The position numbers were made by a program, and so were the translations under genes. A model generated the notes under the pieces. The model was not told the origin of the DNA. It saw only the letters and a program-made list of their open reading frames with translations, and made no database searches. Shown piece by piece: positions 11,374-46,806 of a stretch of 64,000 nt of DNA; position 1 is the first letter of the stretch; the number at the start of each line of letters is the position of its first letter. Source of the DNA: a virus; the UHGV virus genome UHGV-0218015, one strand, 5' to 3'.

Positions 11374-11393
11374 CGGGACGTTCCTTAGATCGG

Positions 11394-11425
11394 AATTGAT
11401 TTCAGATATATATTACTTAAGTGAA
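11394..11425 (+). promoter_or_regulatory. phage promoter-like motif TTTCAGATATATATTACTTAAGTGA
   Basis: 20-nt core identical to a second copy at about 15788-15812; contains TATATTAC, which I recall as the phiKZ early promoter consensus; sits in a divergent intergenic region. Confidence 0.45.
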
Positions 11426-11506
11426 TAGGGACTGAAGTACCAGTTCAGCCCCTACGGACACGTTTCATTCGAAACGGATTGATTAAACCATTTGGGGAGA
11501 CAGATC

Positions 11507-11587
11507 ATGTCTACTAAAAAGAAAGAAAGTCTCAATGAGCTGCTCAAACGGCTTAAAGACTACACTCCATTTAGTACCTTCCGATAA
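11507..11587 (+). CDS. possible 26-aa basic peptide (MSTKKKESLNELLKRLKDYTPFSTFR)
   Basis: ATG preceded by a GGGGAGA RBS-like sequence, downstream of the promoter-like motif; too short to be sure it is coding. Confidence 0.25.
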   Translation: MSTKKKESLNELLKRLKDYTPFSTFR

Positions 11588-11794
11588 CAGGTACTAAAAT
11601 TTTACAGTCTGCCCCTTTATTCTGCTACTCGGGATACCGGTAGGGGGTAGGGGGCATTATGTATACGGATATAAATAGCGGAGGTATACGTAGTATACCG
11701 ACATACTCTTCCCAGAGGAACGTAGTGACTTCCTTATACCTCTTTTACAATCCATAATAATAGACTTCCCTTTATTGAGATTAGCGAGTAAATC

Positions 11795-12532
11795 ATGAGA
11801 GAATTATTAGACGATATCTTTACTAACACCAGTTTAGAACTTTCTTCTACTGTTGTTAACGAACTAATAAAACAATACCAACCTGCTAAGTTAATCGATG
11901 CTGGAACAATTAAACCTGAAGATTATCCAGACAGTGACGTTATCGACTGTATGATTGACGAATACGTGATAGGCAGTTACGCCAACCGCGTCTTCTTCGT
12001 TATTAATACCGAAACCAGTGTCATGTTAATCTATAAGTTGATCAGTGATGCCGAACTTGAAGTTGTGGCTGACCACATTCGTCTTCTTGCGAACACGCCT
12101 ACTAGTATCGATGATGTGCTTATTGGGAACGGTTGGGCTTTACCACCACTATTCTCTTACTTCCCTCTGTTTAGAAATGGGATAGGGTTACTCCGAAATG
12201 CAGAAAACCTTCCCGATAACGTCGAGTTATCACTGCTTGGACCCGGCATCGATCTTTGTCCATTAGAAGACGAGGGCACGCTATATGGTTTGCGCATCTA
12301 TGTTTCTGTGTTAAAGGGTTACCGCGTTATTGAACTGATTGCATCCGACTTAGCAAAACAGATCCCAGATGTGGAAACGATTTCTAAAGCCACCCACCTG
12401 GTTGAGATTAACTCAGACGATCCCTTATTGAAATATCACGAGAAAATTGATCTTCGTAAAATCGCCACGATGAGAGGGTGGAGTTGTGCTGAGATTACGA
12501 AGGACTATCTGCTGTTAATTAAAACCGCGTAA
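11795..12532 (+). CDS. hypothetical protein, member 1 of tandem paralog family (C-terminal GW module)
   Basis: 245 aa; N-terminus M.ELLDDIF resembles 14367..15140; C-terminus RGWSCAEITKDYLLLIKTA resembles the GW...QLLF ends of the next three genes. Confidence 0.55.
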   Translation: MRELLDDIFTNTSLELSSTVVNELIKQYQPAKLIDAGTIKPEDYPDSDVIDCMIDEYVIGSYANRVFFVINTETSVMLIYKLISDAELEVVADHIRLLANTPTSIDDVLIGNGWALPPLFSYFPLFRNGIGLLRNAENLPDNVELSLLGPGIDLCPLEDEGTLYGLRIYVSVLKGYRVIELIASDLAKQIPDVETISKATHLVEINSDDPLLKYHEKIDLRKIATMRGWSCAEITKDYLLLIKTA

Positions 12533-12563
12533 TTAAGAAAACCGAAAAAAAGGAGAATATACC

Positions 12564-13118
12564 ATGTTTCAAACTGAACTGAAAAATGAAATTATCCAAA
12601 CCCTTGAAAAAGGCGTAGGCGAACATTTCTTTGTCCGTCCTTATACCGTACTGACCAATACCATTATCCAGCCAGGTGCGATGATAGTAGGGGTAAGTGT
12701 ACAAGCTGTAGAGGAAACCCCGCTGCGTCGTAACATCACACGTAAAACCCATATCCTGTTTAGAACAGGTTTTACAGATTACTTTCAGAGCTTACTGAAA
12801 GATAGCGTTTGGAAAACAGGCAGCTTCTTCCACGAAGGGAAGACTTCCACGCTGGTTTATAAAGAGAACACCAAGTATCTGGTTGATTTTCTCTTAGCGC
12901 GTCAATACGATTTCTTTCCAACCCCTACCGGCACCACCCATGATAATCCAGGTAAGTTATTAAACCAAGACGAAGCCGAAGCACTCTTTACAAAACTTCG
13001 GAACGAGCACTGTGATGTTGATGACTGGGAAACGCTGATTGCTGTCGCTAAAGCACACGGTTGGTATACCGTACGTAAAATCGGCCAGCAGTTATTATTC
13101 TTAGCTTACCCTGCTTAA
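12564..13118 (+). CDS. hypothetical protein, member 2 of tandem paralog family
   Basis: 184 aa; C-terminus ...AKAHGWYTVRKIGQQLLFLAYPA; strong RBS AAGGAG. Confidence 0.55.
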   Translation: MFQTELKNEIIQTLEKGVGEHFFVRPYTVLTNTIIQPGAMIVGVSVQAVEETPLRRNITRKTHILFRTGFTDYFQSLLKDSVWKTGSFFHEGKTSTLVYKENTKYLVDFLLARQYDFFPTPTGTTHDNPGKLLNQDEAEALFTKLRNEHCDVDDWETLIAVAKAHGWYTVRKIGQQLLFLAYPA

Positions 13119-13147
13119 GTAACGAAAAAACCTAAAGGAGAGTAAAA

Positions 13148-14299
13148 ATGCGAAATATTATTTCTAAACCAAGACGTGGCAAGTACCTAAAAGAACTGAT
13201 GGACAGATGCTATAATCGGACTTGGCCACTACCAAGCTTAACCCTCGACTATTTTTTACAACATACGTTGTTTGGTTATAAATTGGGCTGCTGTGTACTT
13301 AGTGAATACAATGAGATTATCGCGCCTGTCGATGTCTGTACTTTCGATGAAGAAATTGAAGGTTACCAGTTCACGTCTTACACAAATTGTGGACTAAATT
13401 ACCGTAAACTTGTTGTTAGGGAAAAGAGTAGCAATCGGGAGATTATGTTTAAGGTCTTCCCAAATGGTGAAGTCACTAAGTTATGTTTTCAGCTTGAACA
13501 AGTGCCCTTTCACGGTGTAGCTATTTTAACTAAACCAGAACTCGCGTTATTAAGCGAGTTAATCGGCTTTGAAGCAAAAACCATCAAAGTTGAGCAGGAG
13601 CTTACACAAAACGATTTCGGCTCAAGTTGGTACGAAAGTTTCTTCCGCTACGAAATATTAAGTGATAAAGCAATCAAGCTCACTTACCGTTCTACTGACG
13701 ATCTCGTTTACCACATTTTAATTAGCGGCGAACCCCACCTGATTATTGAAGACAAAGGAGAAAATCAAGTGTCTACCTTAAAAGATGAATTAACTGATTT
13801 TGTTAACAAAATTGATAACGTGGGTATCAGTGAATTATTGTTCCCGATACAGCATCCAGAGTTGCTTGACGAGAAATCTGAAAACGTGGTTATGGGCGTA
13901 CATTTACTTCCTGAACATCTTGCTATTTACCGTACAGTTTCTAAGAACCAACTTAAAGTGTGGTGTCTGTTAAAAGACCTTTTAACGGAGGCGGGATGGT
14001 CGTGTAGTGTAGATGCTAACTGTGAAGGAGTTGCGTTCATCGCCAGAATAGACAATCGTAATTTTTCTGTCGATTTACCTACTCGCAGCTATTACAGTTT
14101 CTTCCCGACTGCAGAAGGACGTACTGAAAAAGAGCCAGCATTACTCCTCAGTGCTGAGGAGTCCAATGCGTTAATGGCGAAACTAAAAGCGAAAGACGAG
14201 AAGCTGGATATTTTACATCTACCTATAATCGGAAAAGACTACGGTTGGGCGGACGTACAAAAGTACGGCTGCCAGCTGTTGTTTGTTGCTGACCTCTAA
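13148..14299 (+). CDS. hypothetical protein, member 3 of tandem paralog family
   Basis: 383 aa; C-terminus ...GKDYGWADVQKYGCQLLFVADL, plus an internal GWSC copy of the module. Confidence 0.55.
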   Translation: MRNIISKPRRGKYLKELMDRCYNRTWPLPSLTLDYFLQHTLFGYKLGCCVLSEYNEIIAPVDVCTFDEEIEGYQFTSYTNCGLNYRKLVVREKSSNREIMFKVFPNGEVTKLCFQLEQVPFHGVAILTKPELALLSELIGFEAKTIKVEQELTQNDFGSSWYESFFRYEILSDKAIKLTYRSTDDLVYHILISGEPHLIIEDKGENQVSTLKDELTDFVNKIDNVGISELLFPIQHPELLDEKSENVVMGVHLLPEHLAIYRTVSKNQLKVWCLLKDLLTEAGWSCSVDANCEGVAFIARIDNRNFSVDLPTRSYYSFFPTAEGRTEKEPALLLSAEESNALMAKLKAKDEKLDILHLPIIGKDYGWADVQKYGCQLLFVADL

Positions 14300-14366
14300 T
14301 AAGTAAAAATAGACTTTCTCTAACTGCCGCGCTTTAGTCGCGGCTTTTGTTAAGAGGGAAATAGAA

Positions 14367-15140
14367 ATGAAAATCCATCTAGATGATATCTTTAAAACCG
14401 AACCGTATTTGATCGAAGGTCCGCTAACATCACTACTATTCGCCGATAGATTAGATCGTACGTTGCAATTACAATCGATCGAATCTGCGCCCGTTGACGA
14501 TGTAGAGCGTTACGAGCGCATCAACTATACGCGGGGTGAGTATCGTCGCTATAAGCCGAATTCACTAAGCGTTAAACTTTGGAAAGTAAGCACAGGTAAG
14601 GTATTGACTTATCGCACCGTTGGTAGTTATTACATACAACAAGCCAAAGAATGGCTAGAGAAAGTTAAAGAACTGAACTTCGATCTACTGAGCAAAAAAC
14701 TGCGCGATCATAACGCCAGTTTACCGATACGTAATTATTTCTCCATGGTTGAAAATAGTCGTTGTTTTGTTTCTCGCGAATCCACGATATTACCTGGGAT
14801 TGATGTTCAGACGACGCTAAAAGATGTGGTTGTGAAAAAAGTCTTTCATGAGTCTGAACACGTTGGGTTTCGTATTTATTTAACCCACAAAAGACCATTT
14901 ACCGTGATTCATGTTGTTACCGTACCCGAAGGCTCAGCAGTCTCTCGGGAACTTCCTGATGCACGCGACCGTTGCCCCAACGAGCCGCTTTACTTAATGT
15001 CAGGAACAAAATCAACCGCGTTGATGTCTCGTTACAGCATGATAGATGTTGTTGACGCTGCTATGAAGCTAGGTTGGAAAGAAGTGCAGCAACACGGTAA
15101 ACAGTTGCTGTTTATTGCCGATGTAAAACTTAATTATTAG
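14367..15140 (+). CDS. hypothetical protein, member 4 of tandem paralog family
   Basis: 257 aa; C-terminus ...AMKLGWKEVQQHGKQLLFIADVKLNY; N-terminus MKIHLDDIF. Confidence 0.55.
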   Translation: MKIHLDDIFKTEPYLIEGPLTSLLFADRLDRTLQLQSIESAPVDDVERYERINYTRGEYRRYKPNSLSVKLWKVSTGKVLTYRTVGSYYIQQAKEWLEKVKELNFDLLSKKLRDHNASLPIRNYFSMVENSRCFVSRESTILPGIDVQTTLKDVVVKKVFHESEHVGFRIYLTHKRPFTVIHVVTVPEGSAVSRELPDARDRCPNEPLYLMSGTKSTALMSRYSMIDVVDAAMKLGWKEVQQHGKQLLFIADVKLNY

Positions 15141-15152
15141 TGAGGTGGAACC

Positions 15153-15731
15153 GTGTACCGATTAATAGAAATGCGAAAAGACGTTTGGTTAGAAAATCTC
15201 GTCGATGGGGAGCTTGAGGGAATAGAGCTTTCCTTACCAGAAAGAGCGGACACGGTATTAGCCTTTCTGATAAAGCGGGCAGCGAATGAACCTGTGGGGA
15301 TTTTCGACGTGGATTACAAAGATCCGCGCGGAATTCGTTTACGTAACATCTGTTGTGGTTTAGATAACTTGACGGCAAGTCCTTTCGTAAACTACGCAAA
15401 ACGTAAACTCCAGCCAGGGCAACATCTCTGGGTAGTTCTAGCGCCAGATATTCGCATTATGCGAGACGACCTGACTGCGTTTGTGCAAGCAACGAAAGTC
15501 AGTTTGTACAATCCTAATGCGGAACGTACCGATATGCCGTTTACAATCACCTTAGAAGACGATGGAACGCAAGAGGGCATTGAGGCGATTACGGAATTAG
15601 TAAACTCTTATCCGGTTGCATCTATCGAGTTAGAAAACCCAAACCGATTACCGTTGGGGGATTTACTCGAATGGATTGAGCTGAATACTGAGTTCCTCAT
15701 TAACTCCCGGCAGTATCGGTTCGATGTATAA
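15153..15731 (+). CDS. hypothetical protein (192 aa)
   Basis: Complete ORF with GTG start directly after the paralog cluster, followed by a terminator hairpin. Confidence 0.5.
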   Translation: MYRLIEMRKDVWLENLVDGELEGIELSLPERADTVLAFLIKRAANEPVGIFDVDYKDPRGIRLRNICCGLDNLTASPFVNYAKRKLQPGQHLWVVLAPDIRIMRDDLTAFVQATKVSLYNPNAERTDMPFTITLEDDGTQEGIEAITELVNSYPVASIELENPNRLPLGDLLEWIELNTEFLINSRQYRFDV

Positions 15732-15732
15732 C

Positions 15733-15768
15733 GTCGGTGGGGGTTTACCCCCACCTTTTATTTTTTGT
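15733..15768 (+). terminator. rho-independent terminator
   Basis: Hairpin GGTGGGGGT / ACCCCCACC followed by a T-rich run (TTTTATTTTTTG). Confidence 0.7.
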
Positions 15769-15785
15769 TCGTCAACATTAAAAAT

Positions 15786-15833
15786 AATTTCAGATATATA
15801 TTACTTAGGTGAGAGTTCAGTTACTCTCACTTA
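15786..15833 (+). promoter_or_regulatory. phage promoter-like motif TTTCAGATATATATTACTTAGGTGA with downstream stem-loop
   Basis: Second copy of the motif at 11394-11425; immediately followed by the inverted repeat GTGAGAGT..ACTCTCAC; about 48 nt upstream of the ATG at 15861. Confidence 0.45.
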
Positions 15834-15860
15834 ACGAAAACCATTTTAGGAGAACTAAAG

Positions 15861-16232
15861 ATGAAAAGCGAATTATTTAAAGACCCGTTTGTTGCATTAC
15901 TGATCGTTACACGCGCCGCCACTAACCCAGAAGACCTGAAACGTTTACTTACCAACGAAGCATACCTTCTCGAGCAACGTGACGTGCAGTTAGACAAACC
16001 ACACGCTGAAAGCCAGGTGAAAGACCTTATCTCTATTTTCCGTAACGAAGAATGGCGTAAAAACAACGAGCTGTCCGATAACCTGACGGTTTCGATTGCA
16101 AAACTCTTAACATTGTTCAATCTTGACAAAGACATTAATCAATGCCTTTCTACAGAAGAACGCCTGGAAATGATAAGAGGTATCGGAGATAGTTATACAC
16201 AGATTCAGGCATTACGCAACGCTCTCATTTAA
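15861..16232 (+). CDS. hypothetical protein (123 aa)
   Basis: ORF with AGGAG RBS, downstream of the promoter-like motif. Confidence 0.5.
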   Translation: MKSELFKDPFVALLIVTRAATNPEDLKRLLTNEAYLLEQRDVQLDKPHAESQVKDLISIFRNEEWRKNNELSDNLTVSIAKLLTLFNLDKDINQCLSTEERLEMIRGIGDSYTQIQALRNALI

Positions 16233-16263
16233 TTCCTCGGTTTATAGGGCCCCTTATTTTTAG

Positions 16264-16662
16264 ATGGTGAAATCAATGAATATCAGAACAATACTTTATA
16301 CTATCATTATTTTCTGTGCGGCAGGCATCACCGCTACTTATGCTTTTGGGGAGTCAGATATCCACTACTACGACCCAGCACCAGACTCCCCAATTATTAA
16401 TCCTGATGAAACACCAACACTAATGCGAAGCTTCGGTAAACTAGAGGTGTACCGTCTGGTGCGTGCCGACGTGTGTACTGGTTTGATTATCGCCGATAGC
16501 AGTGCACATGTTTATCAGCGTCTAACCGATATTGCTTGCGAACAACCAAAAGTAATGTCGGTTAGCATACATCCGTTATCTGTTGGTAACTATACCGCTG
16601 TGGACTTCTTTCATAACGCCGAATTAATTGGCCGAGTTACTTTAAATCGTCCTGCTGAATAA
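16264..16662 (+). CDS. small secreted or membrane protein (signal peptide)
   Basis: N-terminal hydrophobic leader NIRTILYTIIIFCAAGITATYA; 132 aa. Confidence 0.5.
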   Translation: MVKSMNIRTILYTIIIFCAAGITATYAFGESDIHYYDPAPDSPIINPDETPTLMRSFGKLEVYRLVRADVCTGLIIADSSAHVYQRLTDIACEQPKVMSVSIHPLSVGNYTAVDFFHNAELIGRVTLNRPAE

Positions 16663-16680
16663 TCTAAAGGAGTAGTCACA

Positions 16681-17166
16681 ATGAAACGTTTACATACACT
16701 GATGTTCTTTCTGGTTTTCTTGTTTATCGGTGCCACACCTACTGTAGATGCGGCCCCCGTAGACGAATTACTTACCTGCGATGGGAACGCTCGGGAAGGT
16801 CAGCCAAATGCGTGTCCAAACATCAACGACTTGTACGATACCGATAAGTCATTTAAAGGTGTTGTTGATAAAACACTAGATCCGGTGGGACTGGATGGAA
16901 TGTTCGGCTCTAAAGGTTACATGGATGGCCCTGGCGGTAACATGTATCCGGTAAATATCAACAACAAAATCTGGATTGAAAGTGGTGGTTGTAAAGCTAA
17001 CGCTTGTGGCTGGGAATATATCGTAACGCTATACAACCCACACACCAAGAAACTCGTCGGTTATTATTACAACATCGACCCCGGTTATCTGATTTGGTTC
17101 GGCGAAATCGGCGTTGCTGAATTCGGTTATCTGGTTAAGAAGTACGTAGAACAATCTAAATACTAA
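16681..17166 (+). CDS. secreted cysteine-containing protein, possible Ivy-like fold
   Basis: Sec-type leader MKRLHTLMFFLVFLFIGATPTVDA; GGCKANAC loop reminiscent of the Ivy CKPHDC loop as I recall it; 161 aa. Confidence 0.4.
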   Translation: MKRLHTLMFFLVFLFIGATPTVDAAPVDELLTCDGNAREGQPNACPNINDLYDTDKSFKGVVDKTLDPVGLDGMFGSKGYMDGPGGNMYPVNINNKIWIESGGCKANACGWEYIVTLYNPHTKKLVGYYYNIDPGYLIWFGEIGVAEFGYLVKKYVEQSKY

Positions 17167-17176
17167 GGAGTTTATC

Positions 17177-17587
17177 ATGAAAACTATCATCAACACTCTT
17201 CTCATTGCAATTGCTATTCTGTTCTCTGTTAACGTATCAGCAAAAATAACACAGTTGCCAGCTGGAATTAAGTACGTCAATAGTACCGACGATTTCTACT
17301 GTACAGAAATTGACGGCCTGTACTGTCAGGCGAAGAGCCTGTTTAAATACAAAGGTAGCAGATACGTGTTCATCGTTGAGCAGGGCGGGGCCTGGTGCTA
17401 CGACAGCCCTATGTCCGTACTCAACCTCGAAACGTGGAAAGCACAGCGCCTTGAATACAACGACAAACGTTTGTGCTCTGGCAATAACAAACCATTCTTC
17501 GAAGTCGTAGATGGTGTACCGATGGTGGGGATATTAGACACTTCGGAAAAACCTATCGTTGTAGCTATGGATAAACTTAAAATTTAA
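17177..17587 (+). CDS. secreted cysteine-containing protein
   Basis: Leader MKTIINTLLIAIAILFSVNVSA; GG..C motif (EQGGAWCYD) shared with neighbours; 136 aa. Confidence 0.5.
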   Translation: MKTIINTLLIAIAILFSVNVSAKITQLPAGIKYVNSTDDFYCTEIDGLYCQAKSLFKYKGSRYVFIVEQGGAWCYDSPMSVLNLETWKAQRLEYNDKRLCSGNNKPFFEVVDGVPMVGILDTSEKPIVVAMDKLKI

Positions 17588-17597
17588 GGAGTAACTC

Positions 17598-17987
17598 ATG
17601 CGTCTCATCTGCGCTTTAGCATTCTTCTTCTCCCTGAGTGTAGCGGCATCTACCCAGGTTAATGATTTACTGCTAACCTCAAACAACAATACCGATTATC
17701 AGTACAATCCCCCGGGGTTTGAAGTTTGTGAAGTCGGTGAAACAATCTGCCAAGAAGTCGGCGCAGACGGGCGCTATATTCTGGTAAAAGCTGATGGTGG
17801 CACAATGTGTCCCGCAGGTTATTACTTTCTACTCGATTCCGTTGCAAGAGAGGTTCTTCCTATCACCACGAAAACGTGCGACCCTACTGTTGTCTTAACT
17901 CTCGCTAAAAGCAAATCTCGCGACCGTTATCTGATCGTTATCGAAGAACGGGGCAAGATGGCTGGCGCTATCGAATTAGATCATTGA
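17598..17987 (+). CDS. secreted cysteine-containing protein
   Basis: Leader MRLICALAFFFSLSVAAS; GG..C motif (ADGGTMCPAG); 129 aa. Confidence 0.5.
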   Translation: MRLICALAFFFSLSVAASTQVNDLLLTSNNNTDYQYNPPGFEVCEVGETICQEVGADGRYILVKADGGTMCPAGYYFLLDSVAREVLPITTKTCDPTVVLTLAKSKSRDRYLIVIEERGKMAGAIELDH

Positions 17988-17995
17988 GTGTAGTC

Positions 17996-18025
17996 TTGGC
18001 CCCGGAACGTCCGGGGTCCTTTTTA
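17996..18025 (+). terminator. rho-independent terminator
   Basis: Hairpin GGCCCCGGAACGTCCGGGGTCC followed by TTTTT. Confidence 0.65.
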
Positions 18026-23445: not shown

Positions 23446-23943
23446 ATGTTAACGGTACGTAAAGAATCTAAAATTGGTAACGATCTTTTTAATGCGCCCG
23501 AAGACTATAAAGTCGTTACCATTAACTGTGTAGGAGCAATGGGTCGCGGTATTGCACTGGCGTGCCGTGAACGCTACTCCAACCTTTATCAAGATTACCG
23601 TAAGCGGTGTCGCGAAGACGAAATTAAGATTGGAAGTGTTTACGTTTACCCGGATGAAAAGTGCATCTTGCTCCCCACGAAAACACACTGGCGTTTAAAG
23701 TCCCAGGTTTCTTATGTTACTGCGGGCATTACCGCATTAGCAGATTGTGTTGAGGAACTGGATACCAGCGTTGCTATCCCTCCACTGGGAATGGCAAATG
23801 GGTGGTTAGATTCCTGGGAAAGACAAGAAATCTTCTTGTGGCTTTACAAAAAACTTGAACCGAGGAGGCAACACTACACGTTATACTTACCCGATAAGCT
23901 GTACCGAGAAGCAGAGTCATTAATTCCAAACTCTTTTAAATAG
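23446..23943 (+). CDS. macrodomain protein of the TARG1/OARD1/DarG type (putative ADP-ribosyl hydrolase)
   Basis: GNDLFNAPEDYKVVTINCVGAMGRGIA matches from memory the human TARG1 segment [27 protein letters not shown]; C-terminal IPPLGMANGWLDSWE matches TARG1 MPRIGCGLDRLQWE. Track ORF begins at a TTG at 23383; the first ATG is at 23446. Confidence 0.7.
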   Translation: MLTVRKESKIGNDLFNAPEDYKVVTINCVGAMGRGIALACRERYSNLYQDYRKRCREDEIKIGSVYVYPDEKCILLPTKTHWRLKSQVSYVTAGITALADCVEELDTSVAIPPLGMANGWLDSWERQEIFLWLYKKLEPRRQHYTLYLPDKLYREAESLIPNSFK

Positions 23944-24016
23944 ATATCATCATTAGGGCACACAACAAAGGAGTATTAGCTGTCCGCGCCGTCATTTCGT
24001 CTTACGGAATACGGAA

Positions 24017-26790: not shown

Positions 26791-26825
26791 ACCCCTACTC
26801 CTCCGGGAGTAGGGTTAATTCTTTT
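26791..26825 (+). terminator. rho-independent terminator (CCCTACTCC hairpin family)
   Basis: CCCCTACTCCTCCGGGAGTAGGG followed by TTAATTCTTTTT. Confidence 0.7.
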
Positions 26826-27403: not shown

Positions 27404-27436
27404 TACCCTACTCCTTCGGGAGTAGGGTAATCTTTT
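27404..27436. terminator. bidirectional terminator (CCCTACTCC hairpin family)
   Basis: CTACCCTACTCCTTCGGGAGTAGGGTA flanked by A-rich and T-rich runs, between convergent genes. Confidence 0.7.
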
Positions 27437-32772: not shown

Positions 32773-33434
32773 TCGTTTATAGTGAGGTCTTGTCAAAAGC
32801 CCCTCGGTTTTTACAAACTCACTTTATGTATAACGCACGGCAGTATTGGGGCTTTAAAGCCCCTTACTCCGAAGATTGGGAAGTTGTGGAAAAGTTGGCA
32901 TTTGTGTTTTCTCTTTCGTTGTTGTGGGAGATCATTGCACTATACAACGCGGGTTGTGATATCCCTGAGAACGGCTTTTTCCAACAACACCTATTCCAAA
33001 AATTCACAGCATCGATAGAAAATCATGAAGTACGCAAGGAGTGTATCGGCTACGCAGAGCATTCTGAAGAATTGAGAAAGATTTCCAAATTAGTTATCAC
33101 GCGGGCATGGGCTGAATTCGAAACTTACCCCGAAAAAATAATTTGGTTTAATCGTGAACAGTTTATTAAAGAGGCAGTCAGTCAACATCCCGTTCGATTA
33201 ATCGTGTTAAAGCCATCCGATCTTGCCTTACGCCGTGTCTATTCGTTTCCAGAGGAAATCATTTTTTCCGCAGGAACAGCAGATTATGGTATTTTTAAGC
33301 AAGGCGATTCTTGGATTCTTCCGCACGACTTAGACCAGTATTTGCTCAGTAGCGATCAAATACATTCGGGTTATGACTCACAAGTGAAGGAGTTTACAGC
33401 CGATCCTTTTTTCATTAAAAATATTCTTAGATAG
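32766..33434 (+). CDS. hypothetical protein (222 aa)
   Basis: ATG overlaps the RNase H stop (ATGCTGA). Confidence 0.5.
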   Translation: MLIVYSEVLSKAPRFLQTHFMYNARQYWGFKAPYSEDWEVVEKLAFVFSLSLLWEIIALYNAGCDIPENGFFQQHLFQKFTASIENHEVRKECIGYAEHSEELRKISKLVITRAWAEFETYPEKIIWFNREQFIKEAVSQHPVRLIVLKPSDLALRRVYSFPEEIIFSAGTADYGIFKQGDSWILPHDLDQYLLSSDQIHSGYDSQVKEFTADPFFIKNILR

Positions 33435-33453
33435 ATATTATCCAGGTGTAACA
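33434..33453 (+). promoter_or_regulatory. promoter-like motif variant AGATATTATCCAGGTGTAAC
   Basis: Resembles the motif at 42551-42570 and, more loosely, the TATATTAC motifs at 11394 and 15786; about 18 nt upstream of the ATG at 33471. Confidence 0.3.
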
Positions 33454-33470: not shown

Positions 33471-34211
33471 ATGCTAAAAGTTTATGTCCCTCAATTACAA
33501 CGTATCAATCCCTCGTTGTTCGAGGGAATCTTTTATAAAATTTGGCCACAATACTTCAATGAACGTTTGAAAGACCCGAGGTGGTCGACCGTACAAGGAG
33601 AATTCTTTTATACCGCACAAACCGCCTGCACAGGTATTTTCACTCAGTTCATTGGAGAAATTATTAACGCCGTCAACACTAACCGAACTGTCGACCTACG
33701 TGACGTTACAGTAGACCTTTCTGCAATCTACGATAACTACGATTGTGATGATGCTGTGTTCGAACACTTTTCTGTTGAAGACGTTTGGGAAGCAGTGTAC
33801 CAGTGGTTAGAGTATTACGTGAATTACCTACTCTCCCCAGAGATGTTAGAAACCTTCAACAAAGCACTCTTTCCTATTTATAACGACTTACTCAACGTTA
33901 AACAAACAAAGAACCTGGTTGGGTTCTGGTATTCGACCTACGACGCCGAATGTAAGTTGTGGGAAAAAGAAATGATTGCTTACGGGATAGAACGGGGAGA
34001 CTATGTTGAGATTCACTGTGGTTTCTGGCCTTTCAGTCACTACGAGAACGCACGGCTTGGTATTTCACGATTGTGGTCGTTTTATCTCTGTGAAGCTACG
34101 GGCGTTATTTACCTTGAAGACAGCGGCGAACAAATCCCTAACGGTACTGTTGTAACATACTGTCAGATTCGAGAAGATCGGGGTCGGCCAATTTATCAGG
34201 AGTACGTATAA
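33471..34211 (+). CDS. hypothetical protein (246 aa)
   Basis: First of four tightly packed plus-strand ORFs with overlapping or abutting stops and starts. Confidence 0.5.
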   Translation: MLKVYVPQLQRINPSLFEGIFYKIWPQYFNERLKDPRWSTVQGEFFYTAQTACTGIFTQFIGEIINAVNTNRTVDLRDVTVDLSAIYDNYDCDDAVFEHFSVEDVWEAVYQWLEYYVNYLLSPEMLETFNKALFPIYNDLLNVKQTKNLVGFWYSTYDAECKLWEKEMIAYGIERGDYVEIHCGFWPFSHYENARLGISRLWSFYLCEATGVIYLEDSGEQIPNGTVVTYCQIREDRGRPIYQEYV

Positions 34212-34753
34212 TGAAAATACTTATCGATTTCTCACTCAGCGAGTCACGGGACAAATTAAACAAAGTGTTAAGTGAGATGCGTAGTCGCGTTGCGTTTGAA
34301 TTACACGATGCGATAGCAGTGCATGAGAATAAGATTTCTGAAGAACACGATGGAGCTGATATTACTATCCTGGATTCAGAAGCGATGGTGAATAACCTCG
34401 TTGAGCAGTTAGTGATAAAAATCAGTTCGGCTATGACATACCCGCATTTAGTACGGGTAACTGATCCCGATACGGATATTCAGCTGATTCTTGAGAAAGC
34501 CTTTCTACATGCCGCGCATTACTTACAGAATAATGCTCCAGATACCCTCGACGAAGTATACGTCGCAATATTGCAGCGCCAATCTTCAACGACAGATATA
34601 ATAGACACAACGTGTTGGAGCGATATTCTTACCAACGAAACGATGTCCCGTATCCGGGATATTTTCCTTGAGACACTCGGGTTAGTTGAGAAAATCTGCC
34701 ATGCTGAGCTCATCTACCTATCGTCAAAATACGGACAACCTAAAGGAGTATAA
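34211..34753 (+). CDS. hypothetical protein (180 aa)
   Basis: Complete ORF; start overlaps the previous stop. Confidence 0.5.
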   Translation: MKILIDFSLSESRDKLNKVLSEMRSRVAFELHDAIAVHENKISEEHDGADITILDSEAMVNNLVEQLVIKISSAMTYPHLVRVTDPDTDIQLILEKAFLHAAHYLQNNAPDTLDEVYVAILQRQSSTTDIIDTTCWSDILTNETMSRIRDIFLETLGLVEKICHAELIYLSSKYGQPKGV

Positions 34754-34755
34754 TC

Positions 34756-35280
34756 GTGGATATTTTAATTCAGCTTCGTAAGAAAACAACCATTGCCACG
34801 CCGATAGAGTTAGAGGAGAAAATCTCTGGCGCGGTTGCACGCAAGCTCTGTGGTGCTCACGGCTTTAGCAGTCATCAGGAACAGGTCGTTACTGCCGCTA
34901 CATTACACAACTTACGGCACGCAGTTCATTACTGTTTAGTTGACAACGTCACCATCACTCTTGATGATAACGTAAAAGTCGACCAACTGCGACGCGAAAT
35001 TGTCCACAAGATCGAGGCTTACAATAGACGTTTCGATCGTGTGTGCGCGCGTTTAACTGGTGACGAGGCTCTACGAAAACGTTTGAAACTTGAAATTGAG
35101 TATGCTGCGCAGCGTTACGGGATTGGCGGCACCGAACCGTGTCTGGCTGAACAAGAAATCGATTTAGCAATCGAGGTTTATACCATTCTCTGCTGCGCCA
35201 TCCTAAAAGAGACCAACCACGAAATTACAAAAGCATTGTTAGACACCGCAGACAGACTCACCCCAATTTTAGGACAATAA
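34756..35280 (+). CDS. hypothetical protein (174 aa)
   Basis: Complete ORF with GTG start and AAAGGAG RBS. Confidence 0.5.
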   Translation: MDILIQLRKKTTIATPIELEEKISGAVARKLCGAHGFSSHQEQVVTAATLHNLRHAVHYCLVDNVTITLDDNVKVDQLRREIVHKIEAYNRRFDRVCARLTGDEALRKRLKLEIEYAAQRYGIGGTEPCLAEQEIDLAIEVYTILCCAILKETNHEITKALLDTADRLTPILGQ

Positions 35281-35281
35281 A

Positions 35282-35770
35282 ATGAACTTAAATCATATCT
35301 TCGACATTCGTAACTGCGATATCGTACATGAATTTCTCAATAACGAAACACGTGTACGAAAAGAAATTGAAGAAAAGTTGACTCCGTTGGTTGCAGACAC
35401 TCCTTGGATGGCGGCTTACGCCGCGTCCTACTTTTCTTCTCGGTGCCTAACGCAATACATATTTATCCTATTTGACTTCTCCGATCTATCAAGCAAGCGC
35501 ATAACAGAAACAGACGTTCGGCAACGCCTACGCCATGGTCGCGACGAGTTCTTAAAGAAAGTTTCTGATGCGTACCACATGGAGCGATTCCCTACTCCAC
35601 TAGTCCCCTACACAGAACCGGAATGGGAAAAATTTTATACCCGGATTTGGGTTGAAGATTCTCACTTGGACGAAATCATGGAAATCATCGAACGTAATGA
35701 AAACCTACTTTCCTTACAGCTATGGGAGTGGCTAAAAGCTAATTATCCTGATTACGTCAAAATCGACTAA
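35282..35770 (+). CDS. hypothetical protein (162 aa)
   Basis: Complete ORF followed by a terminator. Confidence 0.5.
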   Translation: MNLNHIFDIRNCDIVHEFLNNETRVRKEIEEKLTPLVADTPWMAAYAASYFSSRCLTQYIFILFDFSDLSSKRITETDVRQRLRHGRDEFLKKVSDAYHMERFPTPLVPYTEPEWEKFYTRIWVEDSHLDEIMEIIERNENLLSLQLWEWLKANYPDYVKID

Positions 35771-38483: not shown

Positions 38484-38581
38484 TCTAAAACCTCGGATTA
38501 TAAGTCAGGGTTACATAGTAAAGTCTTTTTACAGTTCACCCAAACCTTATGACCGAGACAATTCCATAAAGGTAAAGCTCG

Positions 38582-40437: not shown

Positions 40438-40737
40438 ATGCGTTATCAAACGGAGATTGTGGAACGCTTAAGTGAAGGATTGGCAAGTGTTAATTTAGAA
40501 ACAGCGGCCGAATTTCGTGAAGCCTTCACTCTTCCGTTTCCCGATCTGGAATCCTTTTGTTTAAAGGTCGCTGAGTATTACTCGAATCTATTAGTACGTT
40601 ACGGGTATGCGCCAGTACGTTCCGAACTTCCTGAAAACACGGAAGCTATCAGCTACTGGATTGACCTGCTTGAAGCAGAAACGTTATCCAATTTACGTAA
40701 GGCGGTAGACAATGAAACTCGAACCAGCGCGGCGTAA
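40438..40737 (+). CDS. hypothetical protein (99 aa)
   Basis: ORF with AGGAG RBS, preceded by the stem-loop CGGGTAGGGTAAACCCTACCCG. Confidence 0.45.
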   Translation: MRYQTEIVERLSEGLASVNLETAAEFREAFTLPFPDLESFCLKVAEYYSNLLVRYGYAPVRSELPENTEAISYWIDLLEAETLSNLRKAVDNETRTSAA

Positions 40738-41380
40738 AAAGGCGGAAGCCTACGCCTTACAAATCTTAAAGTTGGTAGACCCTTCTGGCATTAATGCCGA
40801 AGCCGCGAAGAAAGCCTTCGCACGAATGACCGACGAACAGTTTAACCGACTTCGTAACGGTTTACCTATTTACAACCCGGTGGGAAGTAAAGTCGAAATT
40901 GACCACCTGCGCAATATCGAGGTGTGCAAAATCCTAGGGGTAAACCTGGAGCAACGGTTGTGGCTAACAGAACCAAAAACAGGTGTTTATCACCGTACTC
41001 GTTACCCTCACTTGGTCTTACGCTTGCCTGTCCGTCGTCAGACGCAGATGCAAGAGAAGAAAATGGCGGTTGCGAAGAACGACAAAGTTCGCGATAAACT
41101 CTCCGGTCAAGTTGTCGGTCCTTCCAAAGCATCCGGGGTCTCCTTCCCAGAAGCATACATCATGTATTCCGATGGTCACGACTGGACACTGAAAGAGTTC
41201 TTGTGGGCGCGTGGTGGTAACGACGCACTACAACGTGCTTTCTATCAGTCGCTGCGCCAAACCGGTAAAGGACGTATCGATTTGCCTGGAGCTGAGCGAA
41301 CGAGTTCTAAAGCAACACGGACGTGGTCAGCGTACCTCAAAGCGATGCATATCGGTAACAACATAGGCCATCCGTCATGA
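40712..41380 (+). CDS. hypothetical protein (222 aa)
   Basis: Complete ORF overlapping the previous gene by 26 nt. Confidence 0.5.
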   Translation: MKLEPARRKKAEAYALQILKLVDPSGINAEAAKKAFARMTDEQFNRLRNGLPIYNPVGSKVEIDHLRNIEVCKILGVNLEQRLWLTEPKTGVYHRTRYPHLVLRLPVRRQTQMQEKKMAVAKNDKVRDKLSGQVVGPSKASGVSFPEAYIMYSDGHDWTLKEFLWARGGNDALQRAFYQSLRQTGKGRIDLPGAERTSSKATRTWSAYLKAMHIGNNIGHPS

Positions 41381-42517: not shown

Positions 42518-42550
42518 TCTTACTACCTCAATTTCAAAAAGAAGTCAGAC

Positions 42551-42570
42551 AGATATTATCTACGTGAGAC
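42551..42570 (+). promoter_or_regulatory. promoter-like motif variant AGATATTATCTACGTGAGAC
   Basis: Resembles the motif at 33434-33453; about 19 nt upstream of the ATG at 42589. Confidence 0.3.
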
Positions 42571-42588: not shown

Positions 42589-43137
42589 ATGTTAACAGGA
42601 ATAATAACTCGTTTTAAACAACGGTTAGAGAATAACCGTTTAAAAGCCCTCAGAGAGTCTTTGAAGCAGGAGTTCCATAAGAACACCCACAACCCCTATG
42701 TCAGAGTCTTTACCGGCTTACAATTGCTTACATTGCCTTTAAACATAAATGAAGAACCCTTTCGCCCCAGCCTTCGCGGTTTCCTCGAATTGCGCGTTAA
42801 TAACATTGACATTCTTTATCAACGTTTAGCATTTCTCATTAACGAATACCAACGAGCAATTAACAGGAGTTCAATTGAATGGCTACCATTGCCCGATGCT
42901 TTAAATAAACGAAACGACTTGGCAGAATACCGATGGCTAGACACTTATTTTGGGACGTCCAGTCCTGAGGTTGCCGCTTATAAATTGGGTAAATTACTCG
43001 CGCTAATTCAACCTTATGAATCGACGTTCCTTAAACCGGAGTCCGACGAAGACAAAGCGTTGGTAAACCAAACAGCGCATTTATTCCGGGAGTTGGAAAC
43101 ACTGATCGAACACTACCTTTTAGAACGCCCTATTTAA
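42589..43137 (+). CDS. hypothetical protein (182 aa)
   Basis: Complete ORF with AGGAG RBS. Confidence 0.5.
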   Translation: MLTGIITRFKQRLENNRLKALRESLKQEFHKNTHNPYVRVFTGLQLLTLPLNINEEPFRPSLRGFLELRVNNIDILYQRLAFLINEYQRAINRSSIEWLPLPDALNKRNDLAEYRWLDTYFGTSSPEVAAYKLGKLLALIQPYESTFLKPESDEDKALVNQTAHLFRELETLIEHYLLERPI

Positions 43138-43167
43138 CAAACCAGTAACCCCTTGTAACAAGGTGAT

Positions 43168-44013
43168 GTGATGGATAGCAAAAAAGTAAGTGTGGTCGTG
43201 GACGCTGAAGACGAACGTGCTGGCGGACCACTTCAAACGCTTTATTGGAATTATAAAGAATTGATCGGATGGAAGCCTTCGGATTACAAACTCGCCGTCG
43301 CCAAACATATTCTGTCTCCAGAATTTAAAACACGTTCAAAAGCAACGATGGACGATCGAATACAACGTATCTCCACGAAGCTGAGTTCAGGTAACATCCC
43401 TGCACTACCTGTCGATCTTACCTGGCGAGGTTTTACAGAAGGGTTGGTGATTACCGGAGTGGAAACACTGCGGATTTGTGTAACCACTTACCGAGGACAC
43501 TTCAAAACAAAAACCGTATCTGAAGTTACCACACGCGTGCGTGAAGATCTCGCTCGGGATTTGTTCGAAGATAACGACGAACGACCTAAGGAGTCTGCAA
43601 CGGCGCAACTGAACCGTTATTTCCAGAACTGTGGTGAGACCGCAAAGATGATGGTACATCCGTTATCTCGGTTAACTTGGACTATCTTCGCAAACATGAA
43701 AATGAATGCGGATTGGTGGTACCGTCTTTCCACAAACTTCGTTAACGATCCCGCTAACTGTGAGCAGACGCCGTCGAAACGAAATGATTTGCGGCACAAT
43801 ATGCAGCACAATCTAAGGTTAAAAAAGAAGTTTTCCTGGAAATGGTTTATGAGGGTACTCAAGGCAATTGATGTTCGTAGTTTCGAAATCCTTTTGACCT
43901 TAAGGCGTCAGAAAGACAATAAGATCTACGAAGTTCAGGTCACGGTAAACCTTGACGAATACCAAATTGGAGACCAGAATGAAAATCGACCAAATAACCA
44001 GTCAGATAAATAA
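43168..44013 (+). CDS. hypothetical protein (281 aa)
   Basis: Complete ORF. Confidence 0.5.
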   Translation: MMDSKKVSVVVDAEDERAGGPLQTLYWNYKELIGWKPSDYKLAVAKHILSPEFKTRSKATMDDRIQRISTKLSSGNIPALPVDLTWRGFTEGLVITGVETLRICVTTYRGHFKTKTVSEVTTRVREDLARDLFEDNDERPKESATAQLNRYFQNCGETAKMMVHPLSRLTWTIFANMKMNADWWYRLSTNFVNDPANCEQTPSKRNDLRHNMQHNLRLKKKFSWKWFMRVLKAIDVRSFEILLTLRRQKDNKIYEVQVTVNLDEYQIGDQNENRPNNQSDK

Positions 44014-45253: not shown

Positions 45254-45263
45254 GAGGCCGGTT

Positions 45264-46748: not shown

Positions 46749-46780
46749 TGCCCTACTCCTTCATAGGAGTAGGGTATTTT
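46749..46780 (+). terminator. rho-independent terminator (CCCTACTCC hairpin family)
   Basis: GCCCTACTCCTTCATAGGAGTAGGG followed by TATTTTCATTTTT. Confidence 0.7.
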
Positions 46781-46806
46781 CATTTTTACCCTAAAGGAGA
46801 ATTATC

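What the first reader, a model, noticed from the sequence alone, without database searches (positions are those of the whole stretch)
11394..15833. Repeated 20-nt promoter-like element containing TATATTAC, with two shorter variants elsewhere
TTTCAGATATATATTACTTA occurs identically at about 11401 and 15788, followed by (A/G)GTGA; the second copy is followed by a perfect stem-loop (GTGAGAGT..ACTCTCAC). The core TATATTAC matches what I recall as the phiKZ early promoter consensus used by the virion RNA polymerase. Related shorter motifs (AGATATTATC.A.GTG) lie just upstream of the genes at 33471 and 42589.
Basis: partly seen in the sequence, partly recalled or inferred. Interest (0 to 1): 0.45.

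Follow-up and report, generated by a model that had tools for sequence, protein, structure and literature searches.

The report
Jumbo-phage early promoters, also in E. coli
The repeated 20-base element is real and is most likely the early promoter read by a giant phage's own injected RNA polymerase, a known kind of signal; the unexpected part is that the same promoter, with some of the phage genes it drives, also sits in about a third to a half of complete E. coli chromosomes.

Summary
TTTCAGATATATATTACTTA occurs exactly twice (11400, 15788; none of 100 shuffles gives two). The two shorter variants (33433, 42551) align with it without gaps.

All four sites are intergenic and point the same way as the genes downstream. 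A weight matrix trained only on Salmonella phage SPN3US scores them 36-48 bits, against at most 10.8 in shuffles.

The window comes from an undescribed SPN3US/Erwinia-type jumbo phage that encodes multisubunit RNA polymerase subunits. The motif, AGA(T/C)A(T/G)ATATTA(C/T)-N6-G, matches two known cases:
- the experimentally mapped early consensus of phage AR9, AAATATATATTAT-N6-G(+1);
- phiKZ, where TATATTAC-N5-TG lies upstream of 7 of 7 genes checked, including the nuclear-shell gene.

In SPN3US the motif precedes non-virion RNA polymerase genes. The best reading is therefore virion-RNA-polymerase early promoters: a new member of a known kind. No transcription data were available to confirm it.

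Further results:
- Transcripts from the strong class are predicted to begin with a hairpin anchored exactly at +1.
- The promoter plus homologues of its secreted-protein genes lie in E. coli genomic islands (1880-2670 of 5426 complete genomes), where the genes are under purifying selection.
- A conserved structured leader lies downstream of site 1.

The parts
11394..11423 (+). Site 1, class A promoter (AATTGATTTCAGATATATATTACTTAAGTG); predicted +1 is G at 11423
   Evidence: Exact 20-mer. SPN3US-trained matrix scores 37.6 bits. TSS placed by the N6-G rule. No SPN3US counterpart. Mutated to TATTTTAC in the 91%-identical relative L017.
11426..11454 (+). Hairpin near the 5' end of the site 1 transcript (positions +4 to +32)
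   Evidence: RNAfold on +1..+36 gives -12.2 kcal/mol, z = -2.6. The relative L013 has a C-to-T change that perfects the stem, -17.3 kcal/mol.
11508..11591 (+). 27-codon ORF with a GGGGAG Shine-Dalgarno sequence; probably not a real gene
   Evidence: Frameshifted by a 2-nt deletion in L013 and deleted entirely in L017.
11600..11760 (+). Conserved structured non-coding leader (GGGGGTAGGGGG ... GCGGAGGT-hairpin-ACCGACAT ... GGAACGTAGTGACTTCC) before the gene at 11795
   Evidence: Nearly invariant in 91-98% relatives. Recognisable in SPN3US, STsAS, Stratton, ChrisDB, Caitlin, Kwan and Phobos. 3 of 5 hairpin pairs covary. The whole leader folds with z = -4.2. No Rfam match.
11795..15731 (+). Five-gene unit downstream of site 1 (245, 184, 383, 257 and 192 aa; no known function)
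   Evidence: ORFs. No Pfam hits; only PHROGs of unknown function.
15736..15765 (+). Intrinsic terminator (GGTGGGGGTTTACCCCCACC followed by a T-run) that closes the site 1 unit
   Evidence: Terminator scan. The same layout of terminator then promoter is seen in phiEaH2, SPN3US and the E. coli islands.
15777..15811 (+). Site 2, class A promoter (ATTAAAAATAATTTCAGATATATATTACTTAGGTG); predicted +1 is G at 15811
   Evidence: Matrix score 48.0 bits. The 41-nt stretch 15777-15817 that contains it is identical in Erwinia phages phiEaH2 and Stratton, and this is the only megablast match of a 7-kb query. Positional orthologue of the SPN3US site at 165706.
15811..15828 (+). 5'-terminal hairpin GAGAGU-UCAGUU-ACUCUC starting at the predicted +1 (8 bp in DNA, 15809-15830)
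   Evidence: -8.4 kcal/mol, z = -3.9, first paired base +1. Anchored stems are found in 16 of 26 unique class A leaders against 14.5% in the null set.
15861..17987 (+). Five-gene unit downstream of site 2. Genes 2-5 (16264, 16681, 17177, 17598) have signal-peptide-like N-termini. It ends at the terminator at 17998.
   Evidence: Genes 2-4 have 58-76% identical homologues in E. coli islands.
23922..23957 (+). Weak or degenerate fifth site (AAATAGATATCATCATTAGG; ATATCAT in place of ATATTAT)
   Evidence: Matrix score 14.0 bits against a shuffle maximum of 10.8. Positional orthologue of the SPN3US site at 174958.
33413..33448 (+). Site 3, class B promoter (…AAAAATATTCTTAGATAGATATTATCCAGGTG); predicted +1 is G at 33448, giving a 23-nt leader to the ATG at 33471
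   Evidence: Matrix score 36.2 bits. Orthologue of the SPN3US site at 184048.
33471..35770 (+). Four-gene unit downstream of site 3 (246, 180, 174 and 162 aa; unknown function)
   Evidence: A terminator follows at about 35780.
42531..42566 (+). Site 4, class B promoter (…TTTCAAAAAGAAGTCAGACAGATATTATCTACGTG); predicted +1 is G at 42566, giving a 23-nt leader to the ATG at 42589
   Evidence: Matrix score 42.9 bits. Orthologue of the SPN3US site at 191606.
42589..46744 (+). Gene unit downstream of site 4 (182 aa and following genes), ending at the terminator at about 46760
40712..41380 (+). Homologue of a multisubunit RNA polymerase subunit (222 aa)
   Evidence: phrog_3233, RNA polymerase beta subunit, E = 6e-93.
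62515..64000 (+). Multisubunit RNA polymerase subunit gene with a DYDGD catalytic motif; it runs off the end of the window. Syntenic with the SPN3US gene at 212357.
   Evidence: Translation. phrog_2986, E = 3e-219. Synteny.

Best explanation
The elements are early promoters of a jumbo phage of the SPN3US/Erwinia-phage group (the phiKZ-related, nucleus-forming phages). The polymerase that reads them is most likely the multisubunit RNA polymerase packaged in the virion and injected with the DNA.

The signal spans about 35 bp:
- an A-tract near -29;
- T-CAGA at -21 to -16;
- the core A(T/G)ATATTA(C/T) at -15 to -7;
- CT at -6 and -5;
- T(-1)G(+1).

Transcription is predicted to start at the G seven bases after the core, at 11423, 15811, 33448 and 42566.

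There are two sequence classes. Class A (CAGATATATATTACYTARGTG; sites 1 and 2) is almost invariant across phage genera, and its transcripts begin with a hairpin anchored at or near +1. Class B (AGAYAGATATTATC; sites 3 and 4) has short leaders of 23 nt.

Each site heads a block of small genes of unknown function that ends at an intrinsic terminator.

Shown here: the motif, its statistics, its placement, its conservation, its match to mapped promoters of other jumbo phages, the polymerase genes, and the hairpins in silico.

Inferred: the polymerase that reads it, early timing, the exact start site, and that the hairpin acts in RNA. My guess for the hairpin is protection of the 5' end from RppH/RNase E-type decay, as for other 5'-terminal stem-loops.
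For: Statistics and placement:
- Four sites, all intergenic and co-oriented with the downstream genes.
- A matrix trained on 18 SPN3US sites recovers exactly these four at 36-48 bits; the maximum in 20 shuffles is 10.8.

Cross-phage conservation:
- In a 7-kb query, the promoter at 15777-15817 is the only stretch with a megablast match in 50,697 phage records, identical in Erskinevirus and 86% in Seoulvirus. The proteins downstream are unrelated.
- The 17-mer occurs 2-3 times per genome in many 205-246-kb viral contigs, each time between a terminator and a ribosome-binding site.

Match to mapped promoters:
- phiKZ has TATATTAC-N5-TG at 7 of 7 intergenic sites, including chmA.
- AR9 early consensus is AAATATATATTAT-(6N)-G+1, and phiKZ and phiR1-37 start 6 nt downstream of the element (PMC5312081).
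- The review PMC7598289 says every RNAP-encoding jumbo phage has such a motif before its early operons.

SPN3US genome:
- 17 of 20 AKATATTAY sites are intergenic and 19 of 20 lie on the gene strand.
- They precede the operon holding the homologue of phiKZ nvRNAP gp055 (E = 8e-43) and an RNAP beta gene at 29014.
- None precedes a structural gene.
- Three strong window sites (15811, 33448, 42566) and the weak fifth site (23957) are positional orthologues of SPN3US sites.

Other:
- The window encodes RNAP subunits.
- The sigma-70 scan does not call any of the sites, and sigma-70-like sites are not enriched: 28 found against 32.9 expected.
- Hairpins: 16 of 26 class A leaders have a stem of 5 bp or more anchored at +1, against 14.5% of random GAG-starting positions, with at least six different stem sequences.
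Against: There is no transcript mapping for this phage or, as far as I could find, for any SPN3US-like phage. The start site, timing and polymerase are all inferred.

The paper that predicted these motifs across jumbo phages (Lavysh 2016) is not held in the library, so I could not compare logos.

The same element sits in E. coli chromosomes in front of genes under purifying selection. This suggests it may also be usable by host RNA polymerase. TATATT at -14 to -9 matches the sigma-70 -10 hexamer in 5 of 6 positions.

Site 1 looks evolutionarily labile: it is absent from other genera and mutated in a close relative.

The hairpin statistic counts related sequences, so the number of independent events is smaller than 26. 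It also depends on the inferred +1.
Confidence: 0.78

Rival explanations
1. They are host sigma-70 promoters. E. coli or Salmonella RNA polymerase would read TATATT as a -10 element, helped by the upstream A/T tract, and transcribe immediate-early phage genes. The E. coli island copies would be ordinary host promoters.
For: TATATT at -14 to -9 matches TATAAT in 5 of 6 positions, including A2 and T6 (sequence). The same element precedes E. coli chromosomal genes with dN/dS of 0.12-0.24, and these genes must be expressed somehow. The 135-nt intergenic region differs at 1 of 135 positions between alleles whose synonymous sites differ by 14-17%.
Against: There is no -35 hexamer at 16-18 bp; the best matches are 1-2 of 6. 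In the E. coli copy, TTGAAA lies 13 or 15 bp from the candidate -10 hexamers. The consensus scan does not call any site.

The most conserved positions (CAGA at -20 to -17, C at -7, T-1/G+1) are not sigma-70 determinants.

The same core is used by phiKZ in Pseudomonas and AR9 in Bacillus, where early transcription is independent of host polymerase.

The 17-mer is at chance level across 185,579 bacterial species. Only Shigella carries the island copy.
Confidence: 0.1
2. They are middle or late promoters read by the phage's second, non-virion RNA polymerase, or class A and class B belong to different temporal classes.
For: Two distinct sequence classes exist. In Goslar most genes are already expressed by 5 min, so classes can be blurred.
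Against: The known non-virion polymerase promoters are different: phiKZ late TATG, phiKZ middle a weak AT motif at -24, and AR9 AACA-N6-TA. Class B precedes non-virion polymerase genes in SPN3US, and those genes cannot depend on their own product. Class A carries the exact phiKZ early core.
Confidence: 0.07
3. The repeat is a protein-binding or recombination site rather than a promoter. Candidates are an operator, a homing or recombination hotspot that shuffles gene cassettes, or a remnant of a mobile element.
For: In E. coli islands, sequence similarity between variants breaks at or just after the element, and different cargo lies downstream. Site 1 lies on a lineage-specific insertion.
Against: The orientation is always with the downstream genes. 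The distance to the ribosome-binding site is fixed. A terminator lies immediately upstream. There are no inverted or direct terminal repeats and no associated transposase or endonuclease. A role as a recombination anchor would be compatible with its being a promoter.
Confidence: 0.05

Closest known systems
phiKZ early promoters, read by the virion RNA polymerase (Ceyssens 2014; Wicke 2020, PMC8244752)
   Same: The core TATATTAC is identical and is followed by N5-TG. Both have an A/T-rich tract upstream, lie in intergenic regions before small early genes, and occur in a phage that encodes two multisubunit polymerases.
   Different: The upstream half differs: TTTCAGATA here, TTAAACAG in phiKZ. 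phiKZ leaders show no regular hairpin at +1. This clade also has a second class (AGATAGATATTATC). The hosts are enterobacteria.
AR9 early promoters, AAATATATATTAT-(6N)-G+1, mapped by dRNA-seq and primer extension (PMC5312081)
   Same: 11 of 13 core positions match, with the same spacing to a G start. The paper describes the polymerase as very sensitive to single deviations, which fits the near-invariance seen here.
   Different: AR9 has a uracil-containing genome, forms no nucleus and infects Bacillus. AR9 has T where class A has C at -7.
Bioinformatically predicted early motifs of SPN3US-like phages (Lavysh et al. 2016, as summarised in PMC7598289)
   Same: This is presumably the same motif family; the review says such a motif can be found in every RNAP-encoding jumbo phage.
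   Different: I could not read that paper. Whether it reports the two classes, the +1 hairpin or the host copies is unknown to me.
5'-terminal stem-loops that stabilise mRNA (ompA 5' UTR, T7 phi10 leader); from my own knowledge, not tested here
   Same: The hairpin begins 0-2 nt from the predicted 5' end, and the stem sequence varies while pairing is kept.
   Different: Function was not tested. The position depends on an inferred start site. The hairpin has decayed in the E. coli copies.
N4 virion RNA polymerase hairpin promoters (PMC4496689 listed; details from my own knowledge)
   Same: An injected virion polymerase transcribes early genes, and a hairpin is associated with the promoter.
   Different: The N4 hairpin lies upstream of the start and is the recognition element for a single-subunit enzyme. 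Here the hairpin is downstream of +1, variable in sequence, and absent from class B.

Membership tests
Jumbo-phage virion-RNAP early promoters (phiKZ/AR9 type) | Highly conserved AT-rich element of about 10 nt centred near -10 | tested here: met
   AKATATTAY carries 2 bits per position in 18 SPN3US sites. It is identical to the phiKZ core and matches AR9 in 11 of 13 positions.
Jumbo-phage virion-RNAP early promoters (phiKZ/AR9 type) | Conserved start nucleotide 6 nt downstream of the element (G+1) | tested here: inconclusive
   A G is present at that position in all four window sites, all 18 SPN3US sites and all 7 phiKZ sites. No 5' ends were mapped.
Jumbo-phage virion-RNAP early promoters (phiKZ/AR9 type) | Intergenic, co-oriented, upstream of operons of small non-structural genes; absent before structural genes | tested here: met
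   Window 4 of 4; SPN3US 17 of 20 intergenic and none before a structural gene.
Jumbo-phage virion-RNAP early promoters (phiKZ/AR9 type) | The phage encodes a multisubunit virion RNA polymerase | tested here: met
   RNAP subunit homologues at 40712-41380 and 62515 to beyond 64000 (DYDGD). That these are in the virion is inferred from SPN3US literature, not tested.
Jumbo-phage virion-RNAP early promoters (phiKZ/AR9 type) | Precedes the genes of the non-virion polymerase, which must be made before it can act | tested here: met
   Tested in SPN3US, not in the window. Sites at 15620 and 15711 lie before the operon with the gp055 homologue (E = 8e-43), and a site at 28973 lies before the RNAP beta gene.
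Jumbo-phage virion-RNAP early promoters (phiKZ/AR9 type) | Transcription is early, rifampicin-resistant and independent of protein synthesis | not testable with these tools
   This needs infection experiments. No SPN3US-group transcriptome was found.
Bacterial sigma-70 promoters | -35 TTGACA-like hexamer 16-18 bp upstream of a TATAAT-like -10 | tested here: not met
   The scan calls none of the sites. By hand, the -35 matches at most 2 of 6 at the proper spacing. The -10-like TATATT matches 5 of 6.
N4-type hairpin promoters | DNA hairpin upstream of +1 as the recognition element | tested here: not met
   The hairpin lies from +1 onward, varies in sequence, and is missing in class B.
5'-terminal mRNA stabiliser hairpins | Stable stem beginning within 0-2 nt of the 5' end | tested here: inconclusive
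   16 of 26 class A leaders have a stem of 5 bp or more anchored at the predicted +1, against 14.5% in the null set. The 5' end and any effect on half-life are unmeasured.

The most novel reading that the evidence does not exclude
The class A promoter and the operon of secreted proteins it drives form a transferable module that E. coli and Shigella genomic islands (CP4-44/SpLE1 type) have captured from jumbo phages and kept under selection. The host may use these early phage periplasmic proteins as a superinfection-exclusion-like barrier against jumbo phages. The retained phage promoter might even make their expression respond to the incoming virion polymerase. Separately, the hairpin anchored at +1 could be a specific mark of transcripts made inside the early infection vesicle (for export, stability or translation) rather than a generic stabiliser.
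Probability: 0.2. Interest if true: 0.75.

Novelty: new member of a known kind. Interest (0 to 1): 0.4.

Why it matters
As a promoter call, this is routine annotation of a new SPN3US-like jumbo phage. It still gives four precise predicted start sites and operon boundaries.

Three points go further.

1. The roughly 35-bp class A signal is nearly invariant across genera whose proteins are only about 50% identical. That makes it a well-defined template for the virion RNA polymerase. As of the 2017 AR9 paper (PMC5312081), no virion RNA polymerase of this phage group had been purified.

2. The hairpin at +1 suggests a testable RNA-level feature of immediate-early transcripts.

3. Jumbo-phage early genes with their own promoter, in a third to a half of complete E. 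coli genomes and under purifying selection, point to gene flow from nucleus-forming phages into host islands, and possibly to a host defence against them. This could be tested with simple knock-outs and plaque assays.

Tried and rejected
- Rfam on 11300-16000 at E of 1 or less: nothing. tRNA scan of the window: none.
- Ceyssens 2014 and Lavysh 2016 are not held. The supplements of the two phiKZ TSS papers are not held. A full-text search for TATATTAC returned only irrelevant papers. I therefore derived the phiKZ consensus from the genome itself.
- The SPN3US 617-aa protein at 15768 could not be confirmed as the nuclear-shell protein. BLASTP against phiKZ gp054 was not significant and it falls in a different PHROG. 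I rely instead on the adjacent gp055 homologue.
- blastn of the site 1 leader (11590-11800) against all phage records found nothing. Homologues were found only by fetching the syntenic intergenic regions.
- A GTAAAAAAG-N-TAGTATG box next to the baseplate gene looked like a phiKZ-type TATG late promoter, but it occurs only once in the window and once in SPN3US, so I did not pursue it.
- AlphaFold of the 136-aa secreted protein gave pLDDT 48.7, too poor for a fold search. Pfam and PADLOC gave no hits for the operon proteins.
- The 27-codon ORF after site 1 was rejected as a gene.
- A larger repeat or mobile element around the two copies was rejected.

Full report
**Observation.** The 20-mer TTTCAGATATATATTACTTA is present exactly twice, at 11400-11419 and 15788-15807 on the + strand. 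There are no further matches with up to three mismatches, and none of 100 dinucleotide shuffles gives two. The similarity extends to 31 nt (11394-11424 and 15782-15812, 90%) and then stops; the flanks are unrelated. Both copies are intergenic (11374-11794 and 15732-15860) and point towards + strand genes. The second copy is followed by the perfect hairpin GTGAGAGT/ACTCTCAC. The shorter variants at 33433 and 42551 exist as described and align without gaps to the long copies as AGAYAKATATTAYYNANGTG. TATATTAC alone is not over-represented (3 found, 2.1 expected). ATATTAYNNNNNTG is over-represented (7 found, 1.0 expected, 0 of 100 shuffles), and its four intergenic hits are exactly these sites.

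**What the window is.** The large proteins are about 53% identical to those of Salmonella phage SPN3US, and the baseplate protein is 72% identical to that of Erwinia phage Stratton. Gene order follows SPN3US 150.8-214 kb. The window encodes two multisubunit RNA polymerase subunit homologues, one with a DYDGD motif. Close relatives at 76-98% nucleotide identity exist only as metagenomic viral contigs of 220-225 kb. A further relative, about 79% identical over the aligned 45% of a 21-kb query, is a 221,873-bp circular "plasmid" in an E. coli urine isolate. The window therefore comes from an undescribed enterobacterial jumbo phage of the phiKZ-related, RNA-polymerase-encoding group.

**Conservation.** When 7 kb around the finding is searched by megablast against 50,697 phage records, the only match is the promoter itself. 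Forty-one bases (15777-15817) are identical in Erwinia phages phiEaH2 and Stratton, and 57 bases are 86% identical in SPN3US-like phages. In each case the match is intergenic, lies after a terminator hairpin, and is about 50 nt before a small gene. The proteins downstream are unrelated. The 17-mer CAGATATATATTACTTA occurs two or three times per genome in many 205-246-kb viral contigs, always in the same terminator, element, ribosome-binding-site layout.

**Genome-wide test in a complete relative.** In SPN3US (240 kb) AKATATTAY occurs 20 times. Nineteen are on the gene strand and 17 are intergenic. They fall into two classes. Class A is CAGATATATATTACYTAGGTG, with six copies. Class B is AGATAGATATTATC, with about twelve. 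A weight matrix built only from these SPN3US sites scores the four window sites at 48.0, 42.9, 37.6 and 36.2 bits, while the best score in 20 shuffled windows is 10.8. The only other window site above the shuffle maximum is at 23957 (14 bits, ATATCAT); one 8.9-bit hit inside a gene on the - strand falls within the shuffle range. The sites at 15811, 33448, 42566 and 23957 are positional orthologues of SPN3US sites at 165706, 184048, 191606 and 174958. The matrix shows a signal of about 35 bp: an A-tract near -29, T-CAGA at -21 to -16, the core at -15 to -7, CT at -6 and -5, and T-1/G+1.

**Link to known promoters.** In phiKZ 1-50 kb, TATATTAC occurs seven times. All seven are on the + strand, intergenic and upstream of genes, including the nuclear-shell gene gp054, and each is followed by N5-TG. 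The AR9 study mapped 41 early starts with the consensus AAATATATATTAT-(6N)-G+1. It states that phiKZ and phiR1-37 also start 6 nt downstream of the element, and that the virion polymerase tolerates almost no deviation (PMC5312081). The window's AGATATATATTAC-(6N)-G matches 11 of 13 positions. A review states that such a motif is found before the presumed early operons of every RNA-polymerase-encoding jumbo phage, and was confirmed wherever it was tested (PMC7598289). A logical check also holds. The non-virion polymerase genes must be transcribed before that enzyme exists. In SPN3US the motif precedes the operon that contains the homologue of phiKZ gp055 (E = 8e-43) and another RNAP beta gene. 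No site precedes a structural gene.

**Host polymerase as a rival.** The sigma-70 scan calls none of the sites, and sigma-70-like sites are not enriched in the region (28 found, 32.9 expected). Terminators are enriched (36 found, 16.6 expected). There is no -35 hexamer at a usable spacing, and the best-conserved positions are not sigma-70 determinants. However, TATATT at -14 to -9 is a 5-of-6 match to a -10 hexamer, so weak host recognition cannot be excluded. The E. coli copies described below keep this rival alive.

**Predicted transcripts.** Starts are predicted at 11423, 15811, 33448 and 42566. Sites 3 and 4 give 23-nt leaders. Site 2 gives a 50-nt leader that begins with GAGAGU-UCAGUU-ACUCUC paired from +1 (-8.4 kcal/mol, z = -3.9). 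Across 26 distinct class A leaders from the window, SPN3US and viral contigs, 16 have a contiguous stem of 5 bp or more anchored exactly at +1. That compares with 14.5% of random GAG-starting genomic positions, and the fraction falls off as the anchor is moved downstream. At least six different stem sequences are used, for example GAGAGTT/AACTCTC, GAGCATTGA/TCAATGCTT, GAGATTGC/GTAATCTT, GATAGA/TCTATC and GAGCGTTA/TAACGCTT. Pairing is therefore preserved while the sequence changes. The sequences are related, so independent events number fewer than 26, and the anchor depends on the inferred start. I read the hairpin as a 5'-end structure of immediate-early mRNAs, most simply a stabiliser. That is inference.

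**Site 1.** It lies on a lineage-specific insertion between the baseplate gene and a conserved intergenic element. In a 91%-identical relative the core is TATTTTAC and the following 100 nt are deleted. The 27-codon ORF there is frameshifted in another relative, so it is probably not a gene. Site 1 is therefore the least secure of the four as a working promoter. Downstream of it lies a 160-nt non-coding element, GGGGG-N-GGGGG ... GCGGAGG-hairpin-CCGACAT, with a second hairpin GGAACGTAGTGACTTCC. This element is almost invariant in close relatives and recognisable in six genera. The hairpin covaries (GGTATAC/GTATACC, GGTGAC/GTCACC, GGTATCC/GGATACC, GGTACTCT/AGAGTACC). It has no Rfam match and I have no explanation for it.

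**Unexpected finding.** The class A element is also in E. coli chromosomes. A 44-nt match (86%, with the 17-mer exact) occurs in 2310 of 5426 complete genomes. It sits in islands of the CP4-44/SpLE1 type, directly after a patatin-like phospholipase gene and its terminator. The genes that follow are homologues of the window's site 2 operon:
- In strain CFSAN064036, a 79-aa protein is 76% identical to the gene at 16264-16662, and a 162-aa pseudogene is 66% identical to the gene at 16681-17166.
- In O104:H4, a 227-aa protein is 58% identical to the 16681 product (75% to phage contigs L006/L025), and a 136-aa protein is 63% identical to the 17177 product (76% to L025).

The O104-type cassette is present at 80% coverage or more in 1880 genomes. 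Two alleles 5.5% apart give dN/dS of 0.24 and 0.12, while the 135-nt intergenic region differs at a single base. The latter could reflect selection or a mosaic boundary. Genes 2-5 of the phage operon all begin with signal-peptide-like sequences. These genes are syntenically conserved in SPN3US and in Erwinia-type contigs at 30-48% identity, so transfer from phage to host is the simpler direction. Across one genome per bacterial species, the 17-mer is at about chance level (113 hits against roughly 69 expected) and only Shigella carries the island copy. The element is therefore not a general bacterial promoter. The function of the host copies is unknown: there are no Pfam or PADLOC hits and the structure model was unusable. 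A superinfection-exclusion-like role is a guess.

**Verdict.** These are most likely virion-RNA-polymerase early promoters, a known kind of element in a new phage, at confidence about 0.78 pending transcript mapping. The hairpin at +1, the host-island copies and the conserved leader raise the interest above routine annotation.

Noticed in passing
L053:13871-15384 (NZ_CP028166.1); L055:3040-4282 (NZ_CP031902.1); L054:3040-3140 (Sakai SpLE1); homologous to window 15777-17587: E. coli and Shigella chromosomal islands carry the phage class A promoter followed by homologues (58-76% aa identity) of the window's secreted-protein genes. The promoter element is in about 2300-2670 of 5426 complete genomes and the full O104-type cassette is in 1880. 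dN/dS is 0.12-0.24. O157 Sakai keeps the element but has lost the genes.
   Followed up: partly
window 11600-11760; SPN3US 161470-161560; L045-L050 intergenic regions: Conserved structured non-coding element between the baseplate gene and the next + strand gene in at least six jumbo-phage genera. It has a G5-N-G5 box and a covarying hairpin flanked by GCGGAGG and CCGACAT. No Rfam family matches. Function unknown.
   Followed up: partly
NZ_CP173450.1 (L051), 221,873 bp: A record deposited as a circular E. coli plasmid (p98232-contig_4, urine isolate) is a jumbo-phage genome, about 79% identical to the window over the aligned 45% of a 21-kb query, with five copies of the promoter element. It may be a carrier-state or contaminating phage annotated as a plasmid.
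   Followed up: partly
window 26793-26814, 27404-27429, 46760-46785; also phiEaH2 and SPN3US upstream of their class A sites: Many intrinsic terminators share nearly the same stem, (A)CCCTACTCC-NNNN-GGAGTAGGG(T), across genera. Terminators are twice as frequent as in shuffles (36 found, 16.6 expected).
   Followed up: no
SPN3US 165706-165780 (L043:15706-15780): In SPN3US the orthologue of window site 2 is followed by the +1 hairpin and then immediately by a strong terminator (GGCTACCTTCGGGTAGCC plus a T-run) before the first gene. This suggests a short RNA or an attenuator there. The window lacks this terminator.
   Followed up: no
window 38484-38514 (- strand); SPN3US 161410-161440 (- strand): GTAAAAAG-N-ACTATG and CGTAAAAAAG-TG-TAGTATG boxes lie just upstream of - strand structural genes. 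They resemble the phiKZ late TATG start motif, but occur only once in each genome scanned.
   Followed up: partly
SPN3US class A and class B leaders, e.g. 94275-94300, 65455-65480, 223320-223345, 23835-23850: A conserved box AATCGAC(T/C)ATT lies between the +1 hairpin and the Shine-Dalgarno sequence in several SPN3US and phiEaH2 early leaders. The window has TAACGAAAACCATTTTAGGAG instead. It could be a translational or protein-binding signal.
   Followed up: no
L050 (Erwinia phage Phobos), intergenic region next to the baseplate gene: Phobos also has a class A-like promoter (TTTCAGATATATATTACCATTGTGA) in the same intergenic region as window site 1, but downstream of the conserved leader element. 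Early promoters have apparently been gained there more than once.
   Followed up: no
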